A stretch of DNA of 64,000 nucleotides from NCBI RefSeq assembly GCF_009914755.1, contig NC_060925.1, one strand, 5' to 3'. The position numbers and the translations under genes were made by a program. The notes under the pieces are model-generated. The model ran no database searches. It was not told the DNA's origin and saw nothing but the letters and a program-made list of their open reading frames with translations. This document shows, in pieces, positions 3,990 through 59,526 of the stretch (positions are counted from its first letter, which is position 1; every line of letters begins with the position of its first letter). Source of the stretch: the human T2T-CHM13v2.0 reference genome, Homo sapiens.

Positions 3990-4165
3990 TTGATGACGCA
4001 AATGCCAACTCCAGTTGCCGGGTACGGCTGCCTGGAACAGAGAACTGACATTGATTCAGAGGAGCCTCGGCTTCATGAGAAAGATGCTTGTTTGATTAGT
4101 AATGTCTGCCATGGTCTTGAGATGCAGGGAGTGATGCTACACACACCATGTGCTTGCTGTCCCTA
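3990..4165 (+). mobile_element. hAT-Charlie DNA transposon fossil (MER117-like)
   Basis: tgccaactcc...ggctgcctgga...gattagtaatgtctgccatgg...ttgctgtccct resembles remembered MER117 consensus; similar copy at 7102-7271. Confidence 0.5.
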
Positions 4166-48573: not shown

Positions 48574-49005
48574 TGTCAGGCCTCTGAGCCCAAGCCAAGC
48601 CATTGCATCCCCTATGACTTGCACATATACATCCAGATGGCCTGAAGTAACTGAAGATCCACAAAAGAAGTAAAAATAGCCTTAACTGATGACATTCCAC
48701 CATCGTGATTTTTTTCTGCCCCACCCTAACTGATCAATGTACTTTGTAATCTCCCCCACCCTTAAGAAGGTTCTTTGTAATTCTCCCCACCCTTGAGAAT
48801 GTACTTTGTGAGATCCACCCCTGCCCGCAAAACATTGCTCTTAACTTCACCGCCTATCCCAAAACCTGTAAGAACTAATGATAATCCACCACCCTTTGCT
48901 GACTCTCTTTTTCAGACTCAGCCCACCTGCACACAAGTGAAATAAACAGCCATGTTGCTCACACAAAGCCTGTTTGGTGGTCTCTTCACATGGACGCGCA
49001 TAAAA
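48574..49005 (+). promoter_or_regulatory. HERV-H 5' LTR (type II / LTR7B-like)
   Basis: tgtcaggcctctgagcccaagc start; tandem ctttgtaatctcccccacccttaagaagg-type U3 repeats; several CCCCACCC KLF/SP-like motifs; aataaa. Confidence 0.85.
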
Positions 49006-49007
49006 TT

Positions 49008-49025
49008 TGGTGCCATGACTCGGAT
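49008..49025 (+). other. Primer-binding site complementary to tRNA-His
   Basis: tggtgccatgactcggat versus canonical TGGTGCCGTGACTCGGAT (1 mismatch). Confidence 0.93.
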
Positions 49026-52000
49026 TGGCGGACCTCCCTTGGGAGATCAATCCCCTGTCCTCCTGTTCTTTGCTCCATGAAAAAGATCCACCTATGACCT
49101 CAGGTCCTCAGACCCACCAGCCCAAGGAACATCTCACCAATTTTAAATCCGGTAAGCGGCCTCTTCTTACTCTCTTCTCCAACCTCTCTCACTATCCCTC
49201 AACCACTTTCTCCTTTCCACTCTTCAATCTCTCCCTTCTCTTAATTTCAATTGCTTTCATTTTCTGGCGGAGACAAAGGAGACACGTTTTATCCATGGAC
49301 CCAAAACTCCGGCGCCAGTCACAGACTAGGAAGGCAGCCTTCCCTTGGTGTTTAATCATTGCAGGGACGCCTCTCTGATTATTTACCCACGTTTCAGAGG
49401 TGTCAGACCACGCAGGGACACCTGCCTTGGTCCTTCACCCTTAGCGGCAAGTCCCGCTTTTCTGGGGGAGGGGCAAGTATCCGAACCCCTTCTCTCCGTG
49501 TCTCTACCCCTTCTCTGCGTTTCTGGGGGAGGGGCAAGTACCCCTCAACCCCTTCTCCTTCATCCTTAGCAGCAAGTCCCGCTTTTCTAGGGGGCAAGAA
49601 CCCCCAATCCCTTATTTCCGCACCCTGACCTCTTATCTCTGTGCCCCAATCCCTTATTTCCACACCCTGACCCCTTTCCCGCTTTTCTGGAGGGTAAGAA
49701 CCCCCGAACCCCTTCCCTCCATGTCTCTACTCTCTCTTTTCTCTGGGCTTGCCAACTTCACTATGGGCAACCTTCCACCCTCCATTCCTCCTTCTTCTCC
49801 CTTAGCCTGTGTTCTTAAGAACTTAAAACCTCTTCAACTCACACTGACCTAAAACCTCAACGCCTTATTTTCTTCTGCAACACCACTTGGCCCCAATACA
49901 AACTTGACAATGGCTCTAAATGGCCAGAAAACGGCACTTTTGATTTCTCCACCCTACAAGACCTAAATAATTTTTGTCGAAAAATGGCCAAATGGTCTGA
50001 GGTGCCTTACATCCAGGCATTTTTCACACTTCATTCCCTCCCAAGTCTCTGTTCCCAATGTGATTCCTCCCAAATCCTCCTTCTTTCCCTCCCGCCTGTC
50101 CCCTCAGTCCCAACCCCAAGCGTCGCTGAGTCTTTCCAGTCTTCCTTTTCTACAGACCCATCTGATCTTTCCCCTCCTCCCCAGGCTGCTCATCGCCAGG
50201 CCGAGCTAGGTCCCAATTCTTCCTCAGCCTCCGCTCCTCCACCCTATAATCCTTTTATCACCTCCCCTCCTCACACCCGATCTGGCTCACAGTTTCGTTC
50301 CGTGACTGGCCCTCCCCCACCTGCCCAGCAATTTACTCTTAAAAAGGTGGCTGGAGCTAAAGGCATAGTCAAGGTTAATGCTCCTTTTTCTTTATCCCAA
50401 ATCAGATAGCGTTTAGGCTCTTTTTCGTCAAATATAAAAACCCAGCCCAGTTCATGACTCGTTTGGCAGCAACCCTGAGACACTTTACAGCCCTAGACCC
50501 TAAAAAGTCAAAAGGCCGTCTTATTCTCAATACTCATTTTTTACCCAATCTGCTCCCGACATTAAATAAAACTCCAAAAATTAAATTCCGGCCCTCAAAC
50601 CCCACAACAGGACTTAATTAACCTCGCCTTCAAGGTGTACAATAATAGAGTAGAGGCAGCCAAGTAGCAACATATTTCTGAGTTGCAATTCCTTGCCTCC
50701 ACTGTGAGACAAACCCCAGCCACATCTCCAGCACACAAGAACTTCCAAACGCCTAAACCGCAGTGGCCAGGCGTTCCTCTAGAACCTCCTCCCCCAGGAG
50801 TTTGCTACAAGTGCCAGAAATCTGGCCACTGAGCCAAGGAATGCCCACAGCCCAGGATTCCTCCTAAGCCGCGTCCCATCTGTGTGGGACCCCACTGAAA
50901 ATCGGACTGTTCAACTCACCTGACAGCCACTCCCAGAGCTCCTGGAACTCTGGCCCAAGGCTCTCTGACTGACTCCTTCCCAGATCTTCTCAGCTTAACA
51001 GCTGAAGACTGACACTGCCCGATCGCCTCGGAAGCCCTGTAGACCATCACGGACGCCGAGCTTTAGGTAACTCTCACAGTGGAGGATAAGTCCGTCCTCT
51101 TCTTAATATGGAGGCTACCCACTCCACATTACCTTATTTTTAAGGGCCTGTTTCCCTTGCCTCCATAGCTGTTGTGCGTATTGACAGCCAGGCTTCTAAA
51201 CCTCTTAAAACTCCCCAACTCTAGTGACAACTTAGACAATACTCCTTTATGCAATCCCTTTTAGTTATCCCCACCTGCCCAGTTCCCTTATTAGGCCGAG
51301 ACACTTTAACTAAATTATCTGCTTCCCTGACTATTCCTGGATTACAGCTACATCTCATTGCCACCCTTCTTTCCAATCCAAAGCCTCCTTTGCATCCTCC
51401 TCTTGTATCCCCCCACCTTAACCCACAAGTATAAGATACCTCTACTCCCTCCTTGGTGACCGATCATGCACCCCTTACCATCTCATTAAAACCTAATCAC
51501 CCTTACCCCACTAAACGCCAATATCCCATCCCACAGCATGCTTTGAAAGGATTAAAGCCTGTTATCACTCGCCTGCTACAGCATGGCCTTTAAAAGCCTA
51601 TAAACTCTCCTTACAATTCCCCCATTTTACCTGTCCTAAAACCAGACAAGCCTTACAAGTTAGTTCAGGATCTATGCCTTATCAACCAAATTGTTTTGCC
51701 TATCCACCCTGTGGTGCCAAACCCATTTACTCTCCTATCCTCAATACCTCCCTCCACAACCCATTATTCTGTTCTGGATCTCAAACATGCTTTCTTTACT
51801 ATTCCTTTGCACCCGTCATCCCAGCCTCTCTTCGCTTTCACTCGGACTGACCCTGACACCCATTAGGCTCAGCAAATTACCTAGGCTGTACTGCCTCAAG
51901 GCTTCACAGACATCCCCCATTACTTCAGTCAAGCCCAAATTTCATCCTCATCTGTTACCTATCTCGGCATAACTCTCATAAAAATACACATGCTCTCTCT

Positions 52001-53837
52001 GCTGATCGTGTCTGATTAATCTCCGAAACCTCAATCCCTTACAAAACAACAACTCCTTTCCTTCCTAGGCATGGTTAGTGCAGTCAGAATTCTTACCCAA
52101 GAGCCAGGACCGCCCCCTGTAGCCTTTCTGTCCAAACAACTTGACTTTACTGTTTTAGCCTAGCCCTCATGTCTGCGTGCAGCGGCTGCCACTGCTTTAA
52201 TACTTTTAGAGGCCCTAAAAATCACAAACTATGCTCAACTCACTCTCTACATTTCTCATAACTTCCAAAATTATTTTCTTCCTCATACCTGATGCATATA
52301 CTTTCTGCTCCCCCGCTCCTTCAGCTGTACTCACTCTTTGTTAACTCCCACAATTACCATTGTTCCTGGCCCGGACCTCAATCTGGCCTCCCACATTATT
52401 CCTGATACCACACCTGACCCCCATGACTGTATCTCTCCGATCCACCTGACATTCACCCCATTTCCCCATATTTCCTTTTTTCCTGTTCCTCACCCTGATC
52501 ATGCTTGATTTATTGATGGCAGTTCCACCAGGCCTAATCGCCACACACCAGCAAAGGCAGGCTATGCTATAGTACAAGCCACTAGCCCGCCTCTTAGAAC
52601 CTCTCATTTCCTTTCCATCGTGGAAATCTATCCTCAAAGAAATAACTTCTCAGTGTTCCATCTGCTATTCTACTACTCCTCAGGGATTATTCAGGCCCCC
52701 TCCCTTCCCTACACATCAAACTTGAAGATTTGCCCCCACCCAGGACTGGCAAATTAGCTTTACTCAACATGCCCGAGTCAGATAACTAAAAAACCTCTTA
52801 GTCTAAGTAGACACTTTCACTAGATAAGTAGAGGCCTTTCCTACAGGGTCTGAGAAGGCCACCGCAGTCATTTCTTCCCTTCTGTCAGACACAATTCCTC
52901 AGGTTAGCCTTCCCACCTCTATACAGTCTGATAACAGACCAGCCTTTATTAGTCAAATCAGCCAAGCATTTTTTCAGGCTCTTAGTATTCAGTGAAACCT
53001 TTATATCCCTTACGGTCCTCCGTCTTCAAGAAAAGTAGAACAGACTAATGGTCTTTTAAAAACACACCTCACCAAGCTCAGCCACCAACTTACAAAGGAC
53101 TGGACAATACTTTTACCACTTTCCCTTCTCAGAAGTCAGACCTGTCCTCAGAATGCTACAAGGTACAGCCCATTGAAGCTCCTGTGTAGACGCTCCTTTT
53201 TATTAGGCCCCAGTCTTATTCCAGACACCAGACCAACTTAGACTGTGCCCCCCCCCAAAAAAAAACTTGTCATCCCTACTATCTTCTTTCTAGTCATACT
53301 CCTATTCACCGTTCTCAACTACTCATACATGCCCTGCTCTTGTTTACACTGCCGGTTTACACTGTTTCTCCAAGCCATCACAGCTGATATCTCCTGGTGC
53401 TATCCCCAAACTGCCACTCTTAACTCTTGAAGTAAATAAATAATCTTTGCTGGCAGGACTATGCTGAATCTCCTTAGGCACTCTCTAATCAGATGCCCTA
53501 GGTTCTCCCAATTCTTAGACCTTTTATACCTGTTTTTCTCCTTCTCTTATTCCATTTAGTTTTTCAATTCATACAAAACCGTATCCAGGCCATCACCAAT
53601 CATTCTATACAACAAATGTTTCTTCTAACATCCCCACAATATCACCCCTTACCACAAGATCTCCCTTCAGCTTAATCTCTCCCATTCTAGGTTCCCACGC
53701 CGCCCCTAATCCCGCTTGAAGCAGCCCTGAGAAACATCGCCCATTCTCTCTCCATACCACCCCACAAAAATTTTCGCCGCCCCAACACTTTACCACTATT
53801 TTGTTTTATTTTTCTTATTAATATAAGAAGACAGGAA

Positions 53838-54269
53838 TGTCAGGCCTCTGAGCCCAAGCCATGCCATCGCATCCCCTATGACTTGCACGTATACATCCAG
53901 ATGGGCTGAAGTAACTGAAGATCCACAAAAGAAGTAAAAATAGCCTTAACTGATGACATTCCACCATTGTGATTTGTTTATGCCCCACCCTAACTGATCA
54001 ATGTACTTTGTAATCTCCCCCACCCTTAAGAAGGTTCTTTGTAATTCTCCCCACCCTTGAGAATGTACTTTGTGAGATCCACCCCTGCCCGCAAAACATT
54101 GCTCTTAACTTCACCACCTATCCCAAAACCTATAAGAACTAATGATAATCCACCACACTTTGCTGACTCTCTTTTTCGGACTCAGCCTGCCTGCACCCAG
54201 GTGAAATAAACAGCCACGTTGCTCACACAAAGCCTGTTTGGTGGTCTCTTCACATAGACACGCATGAAA
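53838..54269 (+). promoter_or_regulatory. HERV-H 3' LTR (type II / LTR7B-like)
   Basis: About 19 mismatches versus the 5' LTR by hand count; preceded by PPT. Confidence 0.9.
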
Positions 54270-56831: not shown

Positions 56832-57035
56832 TGAAATTTTTTTAAGAAATAATTTCAAGGTACTATAAAAAACAATTTAAGAAAATGATAGTCATTGGTT
56901 CTATCAAGGTGCTGAGCTGGAGTAATGAAGAACATGTGGACTTTGATTCAGACTATATCACTCATTAGCTACATGACTTTGAGCAAGTTATCTAGCATCT
57001 GAGTCTTAGTTTTATAGAGAAACAAGAATTGTGAT

Positions 57036-59415
57036 TGTCAAGCGTGTCCATGTGAAGAGAGTCCACAACAGGCTTTGTGTGAACAATAAAGCTTTTTAAT
57101 CACCAGGGTGCAGGCGGGCTGACTCCTTTTTCAGACTCAGCCCACCTGCACCAGGTGATTAAAAAGCTTTATTGCTCACACAAATCCTGTTGGTGGACTC
57201 TCTTCACACGGATGCACTTGACATTTTGTGCTGAAGACCCAGGACAGGAGGACTCCTTCGAGAGACCAGTCCCCCATCCTTGCCCTCACTCGGTGAGGAG
57301 ATCTACCTATGACCTCAGGTCCTCAGACCAACCAGCCCAAGGAACATCTCACCAATTTCAGATCGGGTAAGCGGTCGTTTCACTCCCTTCTCCAACCTCT
57401 CTCACTATCCCTCCACCCTTCAATCTCTCCCTTCCTTAATTTTGGTTCCTTTTCCCCTTTCTGGTAGAGACAGAGGAGATGCATTTTATCTGTGAACTCA
57501 AAACTCCAGCGCTGGTCACAGACTCGGGAAGACAGTCTTCCCTTGGTGTTTAATCACTGCGGGGACGCCTGCCTGATTATTCACCCACATTTCAGAGGTG
57601 TCTGATCACCATGGGGATGCCTGCCTTGATCCTTCACCTTGGTGGCAAGTACCACCCCCCGCCCTCTGTGTCTCTACCCTCTCTTTTCTCTAAACTTACC
57701 CTTTTACTATGGGCAACCTTCTGCCCTCCATTCCTCCTTCTTCTCCCTTGGCCTTTGTTCTAAAAAACTTAAAACCTCTTCAACTCCCACCTGATCTAAA
57801 ACCTAAGCGTCTTATTTTCTTCTGCAACACTGCTTGGCCCCAATACAAACTTGGTAATGGCTCCACATAGTCAGAAAATGGCACTTTCGATTTTCTCCAT
57901 CCTACAAGATCTAGATAATTTTTTTCAAAAAATGGGCAAATGGTCTGAGGTGCCTGATATCCAGGCATTCTTTTATACATTGGTCCCTCCCTAGTCTCTG
58001 CTCCCAATGTGACTGTCCCAAATCTTTCTTGTTTTTCTCCCGTCTGTTCCTTCAGTCTCCACCCCAAGCTCTGAGTCCTTTGAATCTTCCTTTTCTACAG
58101 ACCCACCTAACCTCTCCCCTCCACCCCAGGCTGCTCCTCGCCAGGCCGAGCCAGGTCCCAATTCTTCCTCAGCCTCCACTCCCCCACCCTGTAATCCTTC
58201 TATCACCTCCCCTCCTCATACCCAGTCTGGCTTACAATTTTGTTCCACAACTTGCCCTCCCCCACCTGCCCAACAATTTCCTCTTAGAGAAGTGGCTGGA
58301 GCTGAAGGCATAGTCAAGGTTAATGCTCCTTTTTCTTTAGCCAACCTCTCCCAAATCAGTTAGCGTTTAGGCTCTTTTTCATCAAGTATAAAAACCCAGC
58401 CCAGTTCATGGCCCATTTGGCAACAACCCTTAGACGCTTTACTGCCCTAGACACAGAGGGGCCAGAAGGCCGTCTTATTCTCAATATGCATTTTATTACC
58501 CAATCCACTCCTGACATTAGAAAAAGCTCCAAAAATTAAGATTCTGGCCCTCAAACCCCACAACAGGACTTAATTAACCTCGCCTTCAAGGTGTACAATA
58601 ATAGAGGCAGCCAAGTGGCCACGTATTTCTGAGTTGCAATTCCTTGCCTCCACTGTAAGACAAACCCCAGCCACATTTCCAGCACACAAGAACTTCAAAA
58701 ACCTAAACCATAGCAGCCAGGCATTCCTCCAGGACCTCCTCCCCCAGGATCTTGCTTCAAGTGCCAGAAATCTGGCCACTGGGCCAAGGAATGCCCGCAG
58801 CCCAGGATTCCTCCTAAGATGTGTCCCATCTGTGTGGGACCCCACTGGAAATTGGACTGTCCAGCTCTCCCAGCAGCCACTCCCACAGCCCCTGGAACTG
58901 TGGCCTAAGGCTCTCTGACTCCTTTCCAGATCTTCTCAGCTTAGCGGCTGAAGACTGACGCTGCCCGATTGATTGCCTGGGAAGCCTCCTGGACCATCAC
59001 AGACGCCTTGGGTAACTCTTACAGTGGAGGACAGGAATGTCAGGCCGGCCTCTGAGCCCAAGCATGCATGTATACATCCAGATGGCCTGAGGCAACTGAA
59101 GAACCACAAAAGAAGTGAAAATGGCTAGTTCCTGCCTTAACTGATGACATTACCTTGTGACATTCCTTCTCCGGGACAGTGAGTCTCCGGAGCTCCCCAC
59201 TGAGCACCTTGTGACCCCCGCCCCTGCCCGCAAGAGAACAACCCCCTTTAACTGTAATTTTCCACCACCTACCCAAATCCTAAAAAACGGCCCCACTCCT
59301 ATCTCCCTTTGCTGACTCCTTTTTCGGACTCAGCCAACCTGCACCCAGGTGATTAAAAAGCTTTATTTCTCACCCAAAGCCTGTTGGTGGTCTCTTCACA
59401 CGGATGCGCATGACA
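57036..59415 (+). mobile_element. Rearranged HERV-H-group element: inverted R-U5 + R-U5 + PBS + leader/gag + splice-like junction + complete 3' LTR7
   Basis: Colinear with the neighbouring provirus 5' region; TGTCA...TGACA ends; perfect TSD GTGAT; flanking MIR resumes on both sides. Confidence 0.93.
59038..59415 (+). promoter_or_regulatory. HERV-H 3' LTR (older type I LTR7-like)
   Basis: ttcctgccttaactgatgacattaccttgtga; cactgagcaccttgtgacccc; attaaa poly(A) variant; ends gcgcatgaca. Confidence 0.85.
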
Positions 59416-59526
59416 GTGATTATATGAGAAAATGAATATGAAATGCCTAACAATACTATATGTATACTATGGCTTTTATTATTCTAATAAGATATGGATG
59501 ATTTCACAGAGAATGCCAATTATAGG

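What the first reader, a model, noticed from the sequence alone, without database searches (positions are those of the whole stretch)
59011..59045. The same element looks like a copy of a spliced RNA: pro-region donor joined to the acceptor just before the 3' LTR
Seen: the internal sequence jumps from ...ACAGTGGAGG (59030) to ACAGGAA-TGTCAGG (59031). In the neighbouring provirus the homologous positions are ACAGTGGAGG|ATAAGT (51076-51091; a GTAAGT donor with G>A) and a pyrimidine tract followed by AAGAAG|ACAGGAA (53801-53837). The missing ~2.7 kb therefore maps to donor/acceptor boundaries. The leader donor (GG|GTAAGC near 57366) was not used, so leader and gag are retained. Established: spliced HERV-H copies reintegrated in the genome have been reported. 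Inference: the splice removes the 5' half of the polypurine tract, which may have impaired plus-strand priming and U3 regeneration and so be linked to the fold-back 5' end. No poly-A tail and a full 3' U5 argue for integrase rather than L1 retroposition.
Basis: partly seen in the sequence, partly recalled or inferred. Interest (0 to 1): 0.75.

Follow-up and report, generated by a model that had tools for sequence, protein, structure and literature searches.

The report
Reintegrated copy of spliced HERV-H RNA
This 2.4-kb stretch is an old endogenous-retrovirus copy made from a partly spliced viral RNA that was reverse-transcribed and pasted back into the genome; this route is already known for the family, but this copy has an unusual folded-back front end.

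Summary
Element B (window 57036-59415) runs in step with the neighbouring HERV-H provirus A up to ...GTGGAGG (59030). It then continues with ACAGGAA plus the 3' LTR (59031 on), skipping A 51086-53830 (2745 bp).

The skipped piece is an intron:
- Of the first 100 listed family copies, 93 read GGAGG|GTAAGT at the left edge and 95 read AAGAAG|ACAGGAA at the right edge.
- The same junction sits in a doubly spliced, 5'-truncated retrocopy with an A-rich tail on chr1 at 25.75 Mb.
- A two-LTR copy on chr1 at 42.73 Mb uses the AG 3 nt upstream.
- A small tree does not pair the two LTR-type copies as nearest relatives, and the retrocopy has a different LTR type.

B ends in a full U5 with no poly-A and has a 5-bp target duplication (GTGAT), so viral integrase inserted it, not L1.

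The proposed link between the shortened polypurine tract and the fold-back 5' end is not established. The 42.73 Mb copy has nearly the same tract and a normal 5' LTR.

Spliced HERV-H genomic copies were reported in 1995. This locus was listed in 2012 as a transcribed element lacking its 5' LTR. It is a new member of a known kind. The fold-back, which recurs at a second locus, is the more interesting part.

The parts
57031..57035 (.). Left copy of the 5-bp target-site duplication, GTGAT
   Evidence: Read. The same five bases follow the element at 59416-59420.
57036..57122 (-). Inverted copy of R-U5. Its outer end is the U5 tip (TGTCA...), and its inner 5 nt, GCTGA, overlap the start of the forward R.
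   Evidence: 57038-57126 matches A 54267-54178 on the minus strand; 78 of 88 aligned columns are identical to the forward arm.
57123..57136 (+). 14-nt spacer between the two arms, in plus orientation (R positions +6 to +19)
57118..57223 (+). Forward R-U5 that starts at the RNA 5' end (GCTGACTC...). No U3 lies upstream.
   Evidence: The cap site is fixed by 5 of 5 L1-type full-length retrocopies that start at the same base.
57226..57243 (+). Primer-binding-site region. It differs from provirus A's and resembles that of element C and L069.
   Evidence: reading only. Any tRNA assignment is recalled, not tested.
57362..57372 (+). Leader splice donor ATCGG|GTAAGC, not used in this copy
   Evidence: The retrocopy at chr1:25.75 Mb ends its first exon exactly here.
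57367..58929 (+). Retained first intron: the rest of the leader plus a broken gag (many stops and frame shifts)
   Evidence: One search shows collinearity with A. (Pfam): zf-CCHC in 58714-58908 (E 1.4e-7) and a Gag_p30 fragment in 58324-58539 (E 8.5e-6, below the curated cut-off). One search counted 19 stops in one frame.
58930..59030 (+). 101-nt stretch that behaves as a small internal exon in spliced HERV-H RNA. It is preceded by ...TTTCCAG, holds the end of gag and the first ~70 nt of pro, and ends at the donor-side boundary GGAGG.
   Evidence: The same stretch is exon 2 of the chr1:25.75 Mb retrocopy.
59011..59045 (+). The reported junction: exon end ...GTGGAGG (59030) joined to ACAGGAA (59031)
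59031..59037 (+). The 7 nt left of the polypurine tract. With the preceding GGAGG they form a 12-nt run with 11 purines.
59038..59415 (+). Complete 3' LTR (U3-R-U5, 378 bp) ending ...TGACA, with an ATTAAA signal at 59352-59357 and no poly-A tail
   Evidence: 89-90% identical to element C's LTRs and 84-85% to A's.
59416..59420 (.). Right copy of the target-site duplication, GTGAT
51086..53830 (+). The stretch of neighbouring provirus A (48574-54269, target duplication CACAT) that matches the intron missing from B
   Evidence: At the first intron position A reads A, where 93 of 100 listed copies read G.

Best explanation
Element B (57036-59415) is a DNA copy of a partly spliced HERV-H transcript.

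The RNA kept its first intron (leader plus gag). It had lost the second intron, which runs from a donor about 70 nt into pro (GGAGG|GTAAGT) to a weak AG acceptor 7 nt before U3 (AAGAAG|ACAGGAA). That RNA was reverse-transcribed and inserted by the retroviral integrase, duplicating 5 bp of target (GTGAT).

Shown:
- The break falls exactly on family-conserved GT and AG.
- The same exon-exon joint occurs in independent loci, including a processed retrocopy with an A-rich tail.
- B has a full 3' LTR and a 5-bp duplication.

Inferred:
- This RNA was packaged because it retained the leader region downstream of the first donor.
- The splice happened in the RNA that gave B itself, rather than one replication cycle earlier.

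The left end is abnormal. In place of a 5' LTR there is R-U5 starting at the cap site, preceded by its own inverted copy. [quoted passage not shown] This would use the 5-nt complementarity between R +1..+5 (GCTGA) and +20..+24 (TCAGC). The product is a plus-sense R-U5 that stood in for normal plus-strand strong-stop DNA and left a second U5 tip for integrase.

Today the element is a dead relic. Its 3' LTR has been reported as the end point of a transcript that starts in provirus A in HT29 cells.
For: - **Boundaries.** B matches A up to A 51085/51086 and resumes at A 53831.
- **Donor.** The pattern ACAGTGGAGGNTAAGTC with up to 1 mismatch has 708 places against 79 for the control. Of the 100 places listed, all exact, N is G in 93, A in 4, T in 2 and C in 1.
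- **Acceptor.** 915 places against 0 for the control. Of the 100 listed, 95 read AAGAAG. The AG used here is present in 97 of 100 and the AG 3 nt upstream in 98 of 100.
- **Processed retrocopy.** G000:C1 about 25747966-25748572 (minus strand) reads: leader exon ending at the leader donor, then the 104-nt small exon, then ACAGGAA plus LTR U3-R ending 17 nt after AATAAA, then an A-rich tail. It is 5'-truncated.
- **Element C.** G000:C1 about 42727200-42730373 has two complete LTRs and a 5-bp duplication, CTCAC. It retains the leader and gag, and its junction is GGAGG|AAGACAGGAA, that is, the tandem AG 3 nt upstream.
- **Independence.** B's LTR is 89-90% identical to C's but 84% to the retrocopy's, and the retrocopy's is 92-93% identical to A's. 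In a 9-row tree of leader and 5' gag, C pairs with an unspliced copy, L069 (support 100/99), and B lies on the other side of that split.
- **Same donor elsewhere.** The same donor boundary ends the HERV-H part of a fourth locus, L056.
- **Integrase signs.** Ends TGTCA...TGACA, 5-bp duplication, U5 present, no A tail. By contrast, 5 of 5 L1-type HERV-H retrocopies end at R with an A-rich or (CA)n-then-A tail, followed by a 10-17 bp duplication.
- **Fold-back.** The two arms are 78/88 identical. The turn sits at the cap site defined. DNA folding puts the 3'-terminal TCAGC of the minus strand in a hairpin (43-nt piece: -10.3 kcal/mol, z -4.1). A second element, G000:C3:90147763-90149650, has the same turn point, 80/88 arm identity and a 5-bp duplication, GAGAA.
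- **Literature.** Spliced HERV-H genomic copies are in print: Goodchild et al. 1995, seen only through citing passages in PMC11998498 and the reference list of PMC3758188.
Against: - No RNA data were available, so use of this donor-acceptor pair in living cells was not shown directly.
- The acceptor is weak: AAG|, with 11 mostly purine bases between the pyrimidine run and the AG.
- Only three loci carry the joint, and the census is incomplete. BLAST scored only 40 of 1986 and 40 of 1365 candidates. Pattern searches allow at most 3 mismatches and no indels, and one search missed element C for that reason.
- B may have been copied from an already intron-less provirus rather than from a freshly spliced RNA.
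- For the fold-back, a simple intramolecular hairpin predicts the 14-nt spacer in minus orientation on the plus strand. That is what the chr3 element shows, but B has it in plus orientation. B therefore needs an intermolecular variant or a later flip of the spacer. No paper describing such integrants was found (1 unrelated paper).
Confidence: 0.9

Rival explanations
1. The 2.7-kb gap is a DNA-level or reverse-transcription deletion (end joining, microhomology, or template switching by reverse transcriptase) that only happens to fall on GT...AG.
For: One base on each side of the joint is ambiguous when compared with provirus A: the G at 59030 and the A at 59031. Deletions are common in HERV-H; Liang et al. 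list six commonly deleted segments (PMC3253121, Results).
Against: - Both edges are exactly at the family-conserved donor and acceptor.
- The identical joint sits in a doubly spliced retrocopy with an A-rich tail and a different LTR type.
- A third copy uses the neighbouring AG 3 nt away. That is typical of tandem acceptors, not of repeated random deletion.
- There is no usable homology between the sequences flanking the two break points.
Confidence: 0.04
2. B was not made from a freshly spliced RNA. It is an ordinary integrase-made copy of an unspliced transcript from an older provirus that already lacked the intron, that is, a small lineage of spliced-form elements.
For: B and C share an LTR type (89-90%) and a similar primer-binding region. 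Goodchild et al. 1995 speak in their title of amplification of spliced forms (title seen).
Against: B and C differ by 3 nt at the joint. They are separated in the tree by a split with 100/99 support, with unspliced copies on both sides. No further copy with B's exact joint and LTR type was found.
Confidence: 0.2
3. B was inserted by the L1 machinery, and the inverted 5' piece comes from twin priming.
For: The forward copy starts at the RNA cap site, as full-length L1-type HERV-H retrocopies do. Twin priming does produce 5' inversions (established knowledge).
Against: - There is no A tail.
- The 3' end runs through U5 to the LTR tip.
- The duplication is 5 bp, against 10-17 bp in 5 of 5 L1-type HERV-H copies.
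- The inverted piece duplicates the adjacent R-U5 instead of being the next upstream segment, and it ends exactly at the U5 tip.
Confidence: 0.03
4. The fold-back arose after integration through a genomic rearrangement, such as palindrome formation during replication, and has nothing to do with reverse transcription.
For: Palindromes can form by fold-back replication. The orientation of the 14-nt spacer differs between B and the chr3 element, so some post-integration change is plausible.
Against: - The outer end of the inverted arm is exactly the U5 tip.
- That end abuts a 5-bp duplication matching the one at the 3' end.
- The turn sits exactly at the cap site.
- The same geometry recurs at an unrelated locus with its own 5-bp duplication.
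Confidence: 0.1

Closest known systems
Spliced HERV-H elements in human genomic DNA (Goodchild, Freeman and Mager, Virology 206:164, 1995)
   Same: HERV-H copies in the genome that have the structure of spliced transcripts, read as evidence for retrotransposition. [quoted passage not shown]
   Different: The paper is not held, so I could not check whether its splice sites are the pair seen here. Nothing I could read mentions a copy with a fold-back 5' end.
The same locus as listed by Liang et al. 2012 (PLoS One 7:e29950, PMC3253121)
   Same: Table 1 and Results list hg19 chr1:53890009-53895701 and 53898553-53900850 (5693 and 2298 bp). These sizes and spacing match provirus A and the forward part of B. 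The authors report that the pair is transcribed jointly in HT29 cells and that the 5' LTR is missing from the 2,298-bp element.
   Different: In the Results (part 1) and Discussion, the sections I read, they do not describe the short element as a copy of a spliced RNA. They also do not mention the inverted R-U5 or the target duplication. Their supplements were not opened.
Endogenous mouse mammary tumor viruses carrying the spliced (rem-intron-deleted) env (J Virol 2025, PMC11998498)
   Same: Integrated proviruses that lack exactly an intron; that paper calls this rare (passage).
   Different: It is a different virus and a different intron, and those copies keep a coding gene. Here the retained gag is broken.
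L1-made processed pseudogenes of HERV-W
   Same: The chr1:25.75 Mb copy, and five full-length HERV-H copies (L068-L072), have the same hallmarks. L068-L072 start at R; the chr1:25.75 Mb copy is 5'-truncated. All end at R with an A-rich tail, and L068-L072 have long duplications.
   Different: Element B itself lacks all of these hallmarks. A review abstract (PMC5537654) calls HERV-W the sole HERV group mobilised by L1, which these HERV-H copies do not fit.
[quoted passage not shown]
   Same: The 3' end of strong-stop DNA folds on itself and is extended by reverse transcriptase (review PMC6088434, section 5.1 passages). B's left end has the sequence such a product would have.
   Different: In that review the products are called dead ends for strand transfer, and they were not detected in endogenous reactions. 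Here a product of this shape appears to have been completed and integrated in the germ line. The stem is only 5 bp plus 2-3 inner pairs, not a TAR-sized hairpin.

Membership tests
Integrase-made genomic copy of a spliced retroviral RNA (the class reported for HERV-H in 1995) | Collinear with the parent family on both sides of a gap whose edges are the family's GT donor and AG acceptor | tested here: met
   Searches give the edges. GTAAGT is present in 93 of 100 listed copies and AAGAAG in 95 of 100.
Integrase-made genomic copy of a spliced retroviral RNA (the class reported for HERV-H in 1995) | The same exon-exon joint is found independently of this locus, in transcripts or in other copies | tested here: met
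   A doubly spliced retrocopy with an A-rich tail lies at chr1:25.75 Mb. A tandem-AG variant lies at chr1:42.73 Mb. Transcript data themselves could not be searched.
Integrase-made genomic copy of a spliced retroviral RNA (the class reported for HERV-H in 1995) | LTR ends and a short target duplication of the family's length; no poly-A | tested here: met
   B has a 3' LTR complete to the U5 tip and a 5-bp GTGAT duplication on both sides. A, C and the chr3 element also have 5-bp duplications.
Integrase-made genomic copy of a spliced retroviral RNA (the class reported for HERV-H in 1995) | Two complete LTRs | tested here: not met
   The left end has no U3. It is an inverted R-U5 followed by a forward R-U5. 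Element C does meet this feature.
HERV-H | Sequence homology of LTR, leader and gag to HERV-H proviruses | tested here: met
   Identity to provirus A is 78.7% (leader) to 85.3% (gag). Pfam finds zf-CCHC and a Gag_p30 fragment. Liang et al. list the locus as HERV-H. No Dfam or Repbase model was available, so the subfamily names are recalled.
L1-mediated processed pseudogene | Ends at the poly-A site in R with an A tail, lacks 3' U5, and has a 7-20 bp duplication | tested here: not met
   Compare the 5 of 5 true L1-type HERV-H copies.
Product of self-primed minus-strand strong-stop DNA | Inverted repeat of R-U5 that turns at the RNA 5' end and ends at the U5/PBS border | tested here: met
   The cap site comes, and the hairpin is predicted.
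Product of self-primed minus-strand strong-stop DNA | Spacer orientation as predicted for an intramolecular hairpin that went on as the plus strand | tested here: not met
   B's spacer is in plus orientation. The chr3 element has the predicted minus orientation.
Product of self-primed minus-strand strong-stop DNA | Direct demonstration that reverse transcriptase extends this hairpin | not testable with these tools
   This needs an in vitro extension assay with a synthetic oligonucleotide.

The most novel reading that the evidence does not exclude
B and the chr3:90.15 Mb element may be germ-line fossils of a reverse-transcription side path that has so far been documented only in vitro and regarded as a dead end.

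In this reading, minus-strand strong-stop DNA primes on itself, or on a second strong-stop DNA, through a 5-nt complementarity at the very start of R. The product then serves as a U3-less substitute for plus-strand strong-stop DNA. The inverted U5 tip it creates is accepted by integrase as the second viral end.

Both examples lack a normal polypurine-tract context: B's is spliced away in part, and the chr3 element has none. The path may therefore rescue templates on which normal plus-strand priming fails.
Probability: 0.4. Interest if true: 0.7.

Novelty: new member of a known kind. Interest (0 to 1): 0.42.

Why it matters
- **Splice sites.** The result fixes, from genome sequence alone, two HERV-H splice sites: a donor in pro and a tandem AG acceptor just before U3. 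It also defines a 101-104 nt internal exon. This helps in reading the many HERV-H-derived transcripts of embryonic stem cells and tumours.
- **Routes back into the genome.** The RNA's splice form matched its route in the few cases seen. The two copies that keep the leader/gag intron were inserted by integrase. The one fully spliced copy went through L1. That fits packaging signals lying downstream of the first donor, although three copies are too few to prove it.
- **L1-made HERV-H copies.** L1-made HERV-H retrocopies exist, in contrast to a review abstract (PMC5537654) that names HERV-W as the only such group.
- **The fold-back.** If the fold-back reading is right, it gives in vivo evidence for strong-stop-DNA self-priming and for integration through two U5 ends.

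Tried and rejected
- **20-mer junction search** with up to 3 mismatches: 388 places against 292 for the control, so mostly noise. I tested 38 candidate loci (10 + 11 given loci, plus 17 fetched) against B's junction region. None of the 38 had any HERV-H match.
- **chr2:5.31 Mb hit** (2 mismatches) has no HERV-H context. Three of the six hits of the gap pattern (chr1:8.94 Mb, chr2:77.6 Mb, chr17:78.5 Mb) are also chance.
- **Longer patterns for more copies.** The 27-mer gave only the two known loci plus L056. The 30-mer for the tandem-AG form gave 0 hits, because element C has a small indel there. The leader donor joined directly to the final acceptor gave 0 hits, with exact flanks only. The leader donor joined to the small exon gave 1 exact hit, the known retrocopy, and the rest was noise (151 against 117 control).
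- **BLAST with junction-spanning queries**. Only the known loci span the joint, but only 40 candidates were scored each time.
- **Papers not held:** Goodchild 1995, Wilkinson 1990 and Jern 2005.
- **Search for printed descriptions of integrated fold-back proviruses**: 1 paper, unrelated.
- **Whole-frame Pfam scan of the internal region** failed because of 19 stop codons. I scanned stop-free pieces instead.
- **Dating.** I give raw identities only (arms 78/88; A LTRs 403/420; C LTRs 413/435). The arms are too short for an age.
- **Simplest hairpin model for B.** I considered a model in which the self-primed strand itself becomes the plus strand and rejected it as it stands, because the spacer orientation in B is the opposite of what it predicts.
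Full report
**What is there**

Window 48574-54269 is a deleted-type HERV-H provirus (A) with two LTRs and a 5-bp target duplication, CACAT. About 2.8 kb downstream lies a shorter element, B. BLAST of B against A gives these segments in order:
- an inverted R-U5 (57038-57126 against A 54267-54178, minus strand);
- a forward R-U5, primer-binding region and leader (57118-57653 against A 48898-49455, 78.7%);
- gag up to the start of pro (57656-59031 against A 49709-51086, 85.3% over 1396 columns);
- immediately after, the last 7 nt before an LTR and a complete 378-bp LTR (59038-59415).

Direct reading puts the break between 59030 (...GTGGAGG) and 59031 (ACAGGAA...). In A the matching positions are 51085|51086 (GGAGG|ATAAGT) and 53830|53831 (AAGAAG|ACAGGAA).

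**Is the gap an intron?**

The pattern ACAGTGGAGGNTAAGTC with up to one mismatch has 708 places in the assembly, against 79 for the reversed control. Of the 100 places listed, all exact, the N is G in 93, A in 4 (provirus A among them), T in 2 and C in 1. The family form is thus GGAGG|GTAAGT, a strong donor.

At the right edge, 915 places match the pre-LTR pattern (control 0), and 95 of the 100 listed read AAGAAG|ACAGGAA. A pyrimidine-rich run lies upstream. Translation shows the donor about 70 nt after the gag stop codon, in the first strand of the protease (...VTLTVEG|KS). "Pro-region donor" is therefore right.

**Other loci**

The 23-mer across the joint occurs exactly twice in 3.1 Gb: here and at G000:C1:25748414-25748436, minus strand. 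A third hit with 2 mismatches has no HERV-H context.

The second locus is decisive. It holds these parts in order:
- the end of the leader, which stops exactly at the leader donor;
- a 104-nt piece equal to A 50983-51086, which in A and B is preceded by ...CCCAG/...TTCCAG;
- the same joint to ACAGGAA plus an LTR that stops 17 nt after AATAAA;
- an A-rich tail.

It is 5'-truncated. This is an L1-type retrocopy of a doubly spliced, polyadenylated HERV-H RNA. Both edges of B's gap are therefore splice sites that were used in an RNA.

A gap pattern (donor-side exon end, 0-15 free bases, LTR start) found six places with 0 control hits. Three are chance and three are HERV-H. The new one, element C (G000:C1 about 42727200-42730373), has two complete LTRs and a 5-bp duplication, CTCAC. 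It retains the leader and gag, and its joint is GGAGG|AAGACAGGAA. C therefore used the AG 3 nt upstream, which is the behaviour of a tandem acceptor.

A fourth locus (L056, chr8:99.7 Mb) joins the leader donor to another acceptor 57 nt upstream of the small exon. Its HERV-H part ends at the same pro donor, followed by unrelated sequence. I did not follow it further.

**Independence of the copies**

The flanks of the loci differ. B's LTR is 89-90% identical to C's but 84% to the retrocopy's, and the retrocopy's is 92-93% identical to A's. In a tree of nine natural copies (leader plus 5' gag), C pairs with an unspliced copy, L069, with support 100/99. B lies on the other side of that split. The gag-3' tree of eight rows leaves B, C and L069 unresolved. 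The joint therefore arose at least twice, probably three times. A random deletion or a template-switch deletion does not explain this.

**How B entered the genome**

B's 3' LTR runs through U5 to ...TGACA and has no A tail. The element is flanked by GTGAT at 57031-57035 and 59416-59420. A, C and the chr3 element also have 5-bp duplications.

For contrast, I fetched five HERV-H copies that begin at GCTGACTC. All five have the following features:
- one extra G before R;
- a full-length body;
- an end at R with an A-rich or (CA)n-then-A tail;
- a 10-17 bp duplication after the tail.

These are L1-type retrocopies, and they also fix the RNA 5' end. B has none of these traits at its 3' end, so integrase is the right call.

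The two integrase-type copies, B and C, keep the first intron, which holds the leader region downstream of the first donor. The one fully spliced copy went through L1. This fits packaging signals lying in that intron. That is an inference from three copies plus general knowledge of gammaretroviruses.

**The polypurine-tract inference**

Splicing removes AAGAAG but puts GGAGG in its place, so B still has GGAGGACAGGAA, with 11 purines in 12. C has the same tract with three more bases and regenerated a complete 5' LTR. The shortened tract therefore does not by itself prevent U3 regeneration. The link to the fold-back is neither shown nor excluded.

**The fold-back end** (outside the given coordinates but tied to the finding)

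The left end reads, in order: duplication; inverted U5-R (57036-57122); a 14-nt spacer; forward R-U5 (from 57118, the 5 nt GCTGA being shared); TT; primer-binding region.
- The forward copy starts at the cap site defined above.
- The inverted arm ends exactly at the U5 tip.
- The arms are 78/88 identical, and each differs from the 3' LTR's R-U5 to a similar degree (75/88 and 97/107). That fits three copies that were alike at insertion.
- R +1..+5 (GCTGA) is complementary to +20..+24 (TCAGC). DNA folding of the minus strand places the 3'-terminal TCAGC in a hairpin in the B arm, in B's 3' LTR and in A's LTR (43-nt piece: -10.3 kcal/mol, z -4.1, 0 of 200 shuffles as good).

[quoted passage not shown] Extending such a hairpin to the 5' end of strong-stop DNA and into the tRNA would give a plus-sense R-U5-PBS. 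That product could make the second jump in place of normal plus-strand strong-stop DNA. The result would be exactly an element without a left U3 and with a second, inverted U5 tip for integrase.

A 34-nt pattern for the turn found 83 places (control 0). I inspected the ten best, and two are true palindromes: B and G000:C3:90147763-90149650. The remaining listed hits lack the inverted-arm bases next to GCTGA.

The chr3 element has the following features:
- the same turn point and 80/88 arm identity;
- a 5-bp duplication, GAGAA;
- leader and gag only up to A 50413;
- then an inverted complete LTR whose U5 tip abuts gag.

It has no forward polypurine tract at all.

One point does not fit. A plain intramolecular hairpin predicts the spacer in minus orientation on the plus strand. 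The chr3 element shows that, but B has the opposite. B needs either a strong-stop DNA that stopped at +20 and primed on the 3' end of a second one, or a later flip of the spacer between the inverted arms. I rate the strong-stop-priming origin at about even odds.

**What is known**

- Goodchild, Freeman and Mager (Virology 1995) reported spliced HERV-H sequences in genomic DNA. I saw only its title and a summary in citing papers (PMC11998498 passage; PMC3758188 reference list). The paper itself, Wilkinson 1990 and Jern 2005 are not held.
- Liang et al. 2012 (PMC3253121; Results part 1, Discussion and passages read) list this very pair of elements. The sizes, 5693 and 2298 bp, and the spacing match A and the forward part of B. 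The authors report them as jointly transcribed in HT29 cells and note that the short one lacks its 5' LTR. In the sections I read they do not call it a spliced copy and do not mention the inverted arm.
- A review abstract states that HERV-W is the sole HERV group mobilised by L1 (PMC5537654). The six L1-type HERV-H copies seen here do not fit that statement.

**Verdict**

It is a new member of a known kind. Interest is moderate for the splice itself and higher for the recurrent fold-back end, which deserves its own study.

**Limits**

- No RNA data and no primate orthologues were available.
- No Dfam models were available.
- The census of copies is incomplete.
- Subfamily and tRNA labels are recalled, not tested.

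Noticed in passing
window 57036-57243: The 5' end of element B is a near-palindrome: an inverted R-U5, a 14-nt spacer, then a forward R-U5 that starts at the RNA cap site. The outer tip is a U5 end next to the target duplication. [quoted passage not shown]
   Followed up: partly
G000:C3:90147763-90149650 (minus strand; L067 / L058): A second HERV-H element has the same fold-back turn point (arms 80/88 identical) and the spacer in the opposite orientation. Its leader and gag reach only about A 50413, followed by an inverted complete LTR whose U5 tip abuts gag. The whole is flanked by a 5-bp duplication, GAGAA. One possible origin is an end-to-end template switch onto plus-strand strong-stop DNA; this is not resolved.
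   Followed up: partly
L068-L072 (G000:C11:42.27 Mb, C23:55.08 Mb, C1:81.9 Mb, C1:108.5 Mb, C5:122.99 Mb): Five of five fetched HERV-H copies that start at GCTGACTC are full-length L1-type retrocopies. Each has one extra G, R-U5...U3-R, an A-rich or (CA)n-then-A tail, and then a 10-17 bp duplication. A review abstract (PMC5537654) calls HERV-W the only HERV group mobilised by L1.
   Followed up: partly
G000:C1 about 25747966-25748572 (minus strand; L004 / L019): A 5'-truncated, doubly spliced HERV-H retrocopy with an A-rich tail: leader exon, 104-nt small exon, then the last 7 nt before the LTR plus U3-R. Its target duplication is degenerate and I could not define it.
   Followed up: partly
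L056 (G000:C8:99713938-99716964, minus strand): The HERV-H U5-leader is joined at the leader donor to an alternative acceptor 57 nt upstream of the small exon. At the pro donor it then joins about 200 nt of sequence with no match in provirus A, followed by the start of an L1. It may be a chimeric spliced transcript copy or a splice into a HERV-H region that A lacks.
   Followed up: no
window 57226-57243; L036 about 4141-4160; L069: B, element C and L069 share a primer-binding and leader variant that differs from provirus A's. They also fall outside the well-supported clade of A-like copies. From memory it resembles a Phe-type primer site; this was not tested.
   Followed up: no
window 48574-54269 and 57118-59415: Liang et al. 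2012 (PMC3253121, Table 1) report a transcript in HT29 colon cancer cells that starts in provirus A's 5' LTR and ends in element B's 3' LTR. RefSeq lists no gene here according to the hub table.
   Followed up: partly
L036 5434-5775 (G000:C1 about 42728933-42729274): A roughly 340-bp insertion interrupts gag of element C. It is Alu-sized, but its identity was not checked.
   Followed up: no
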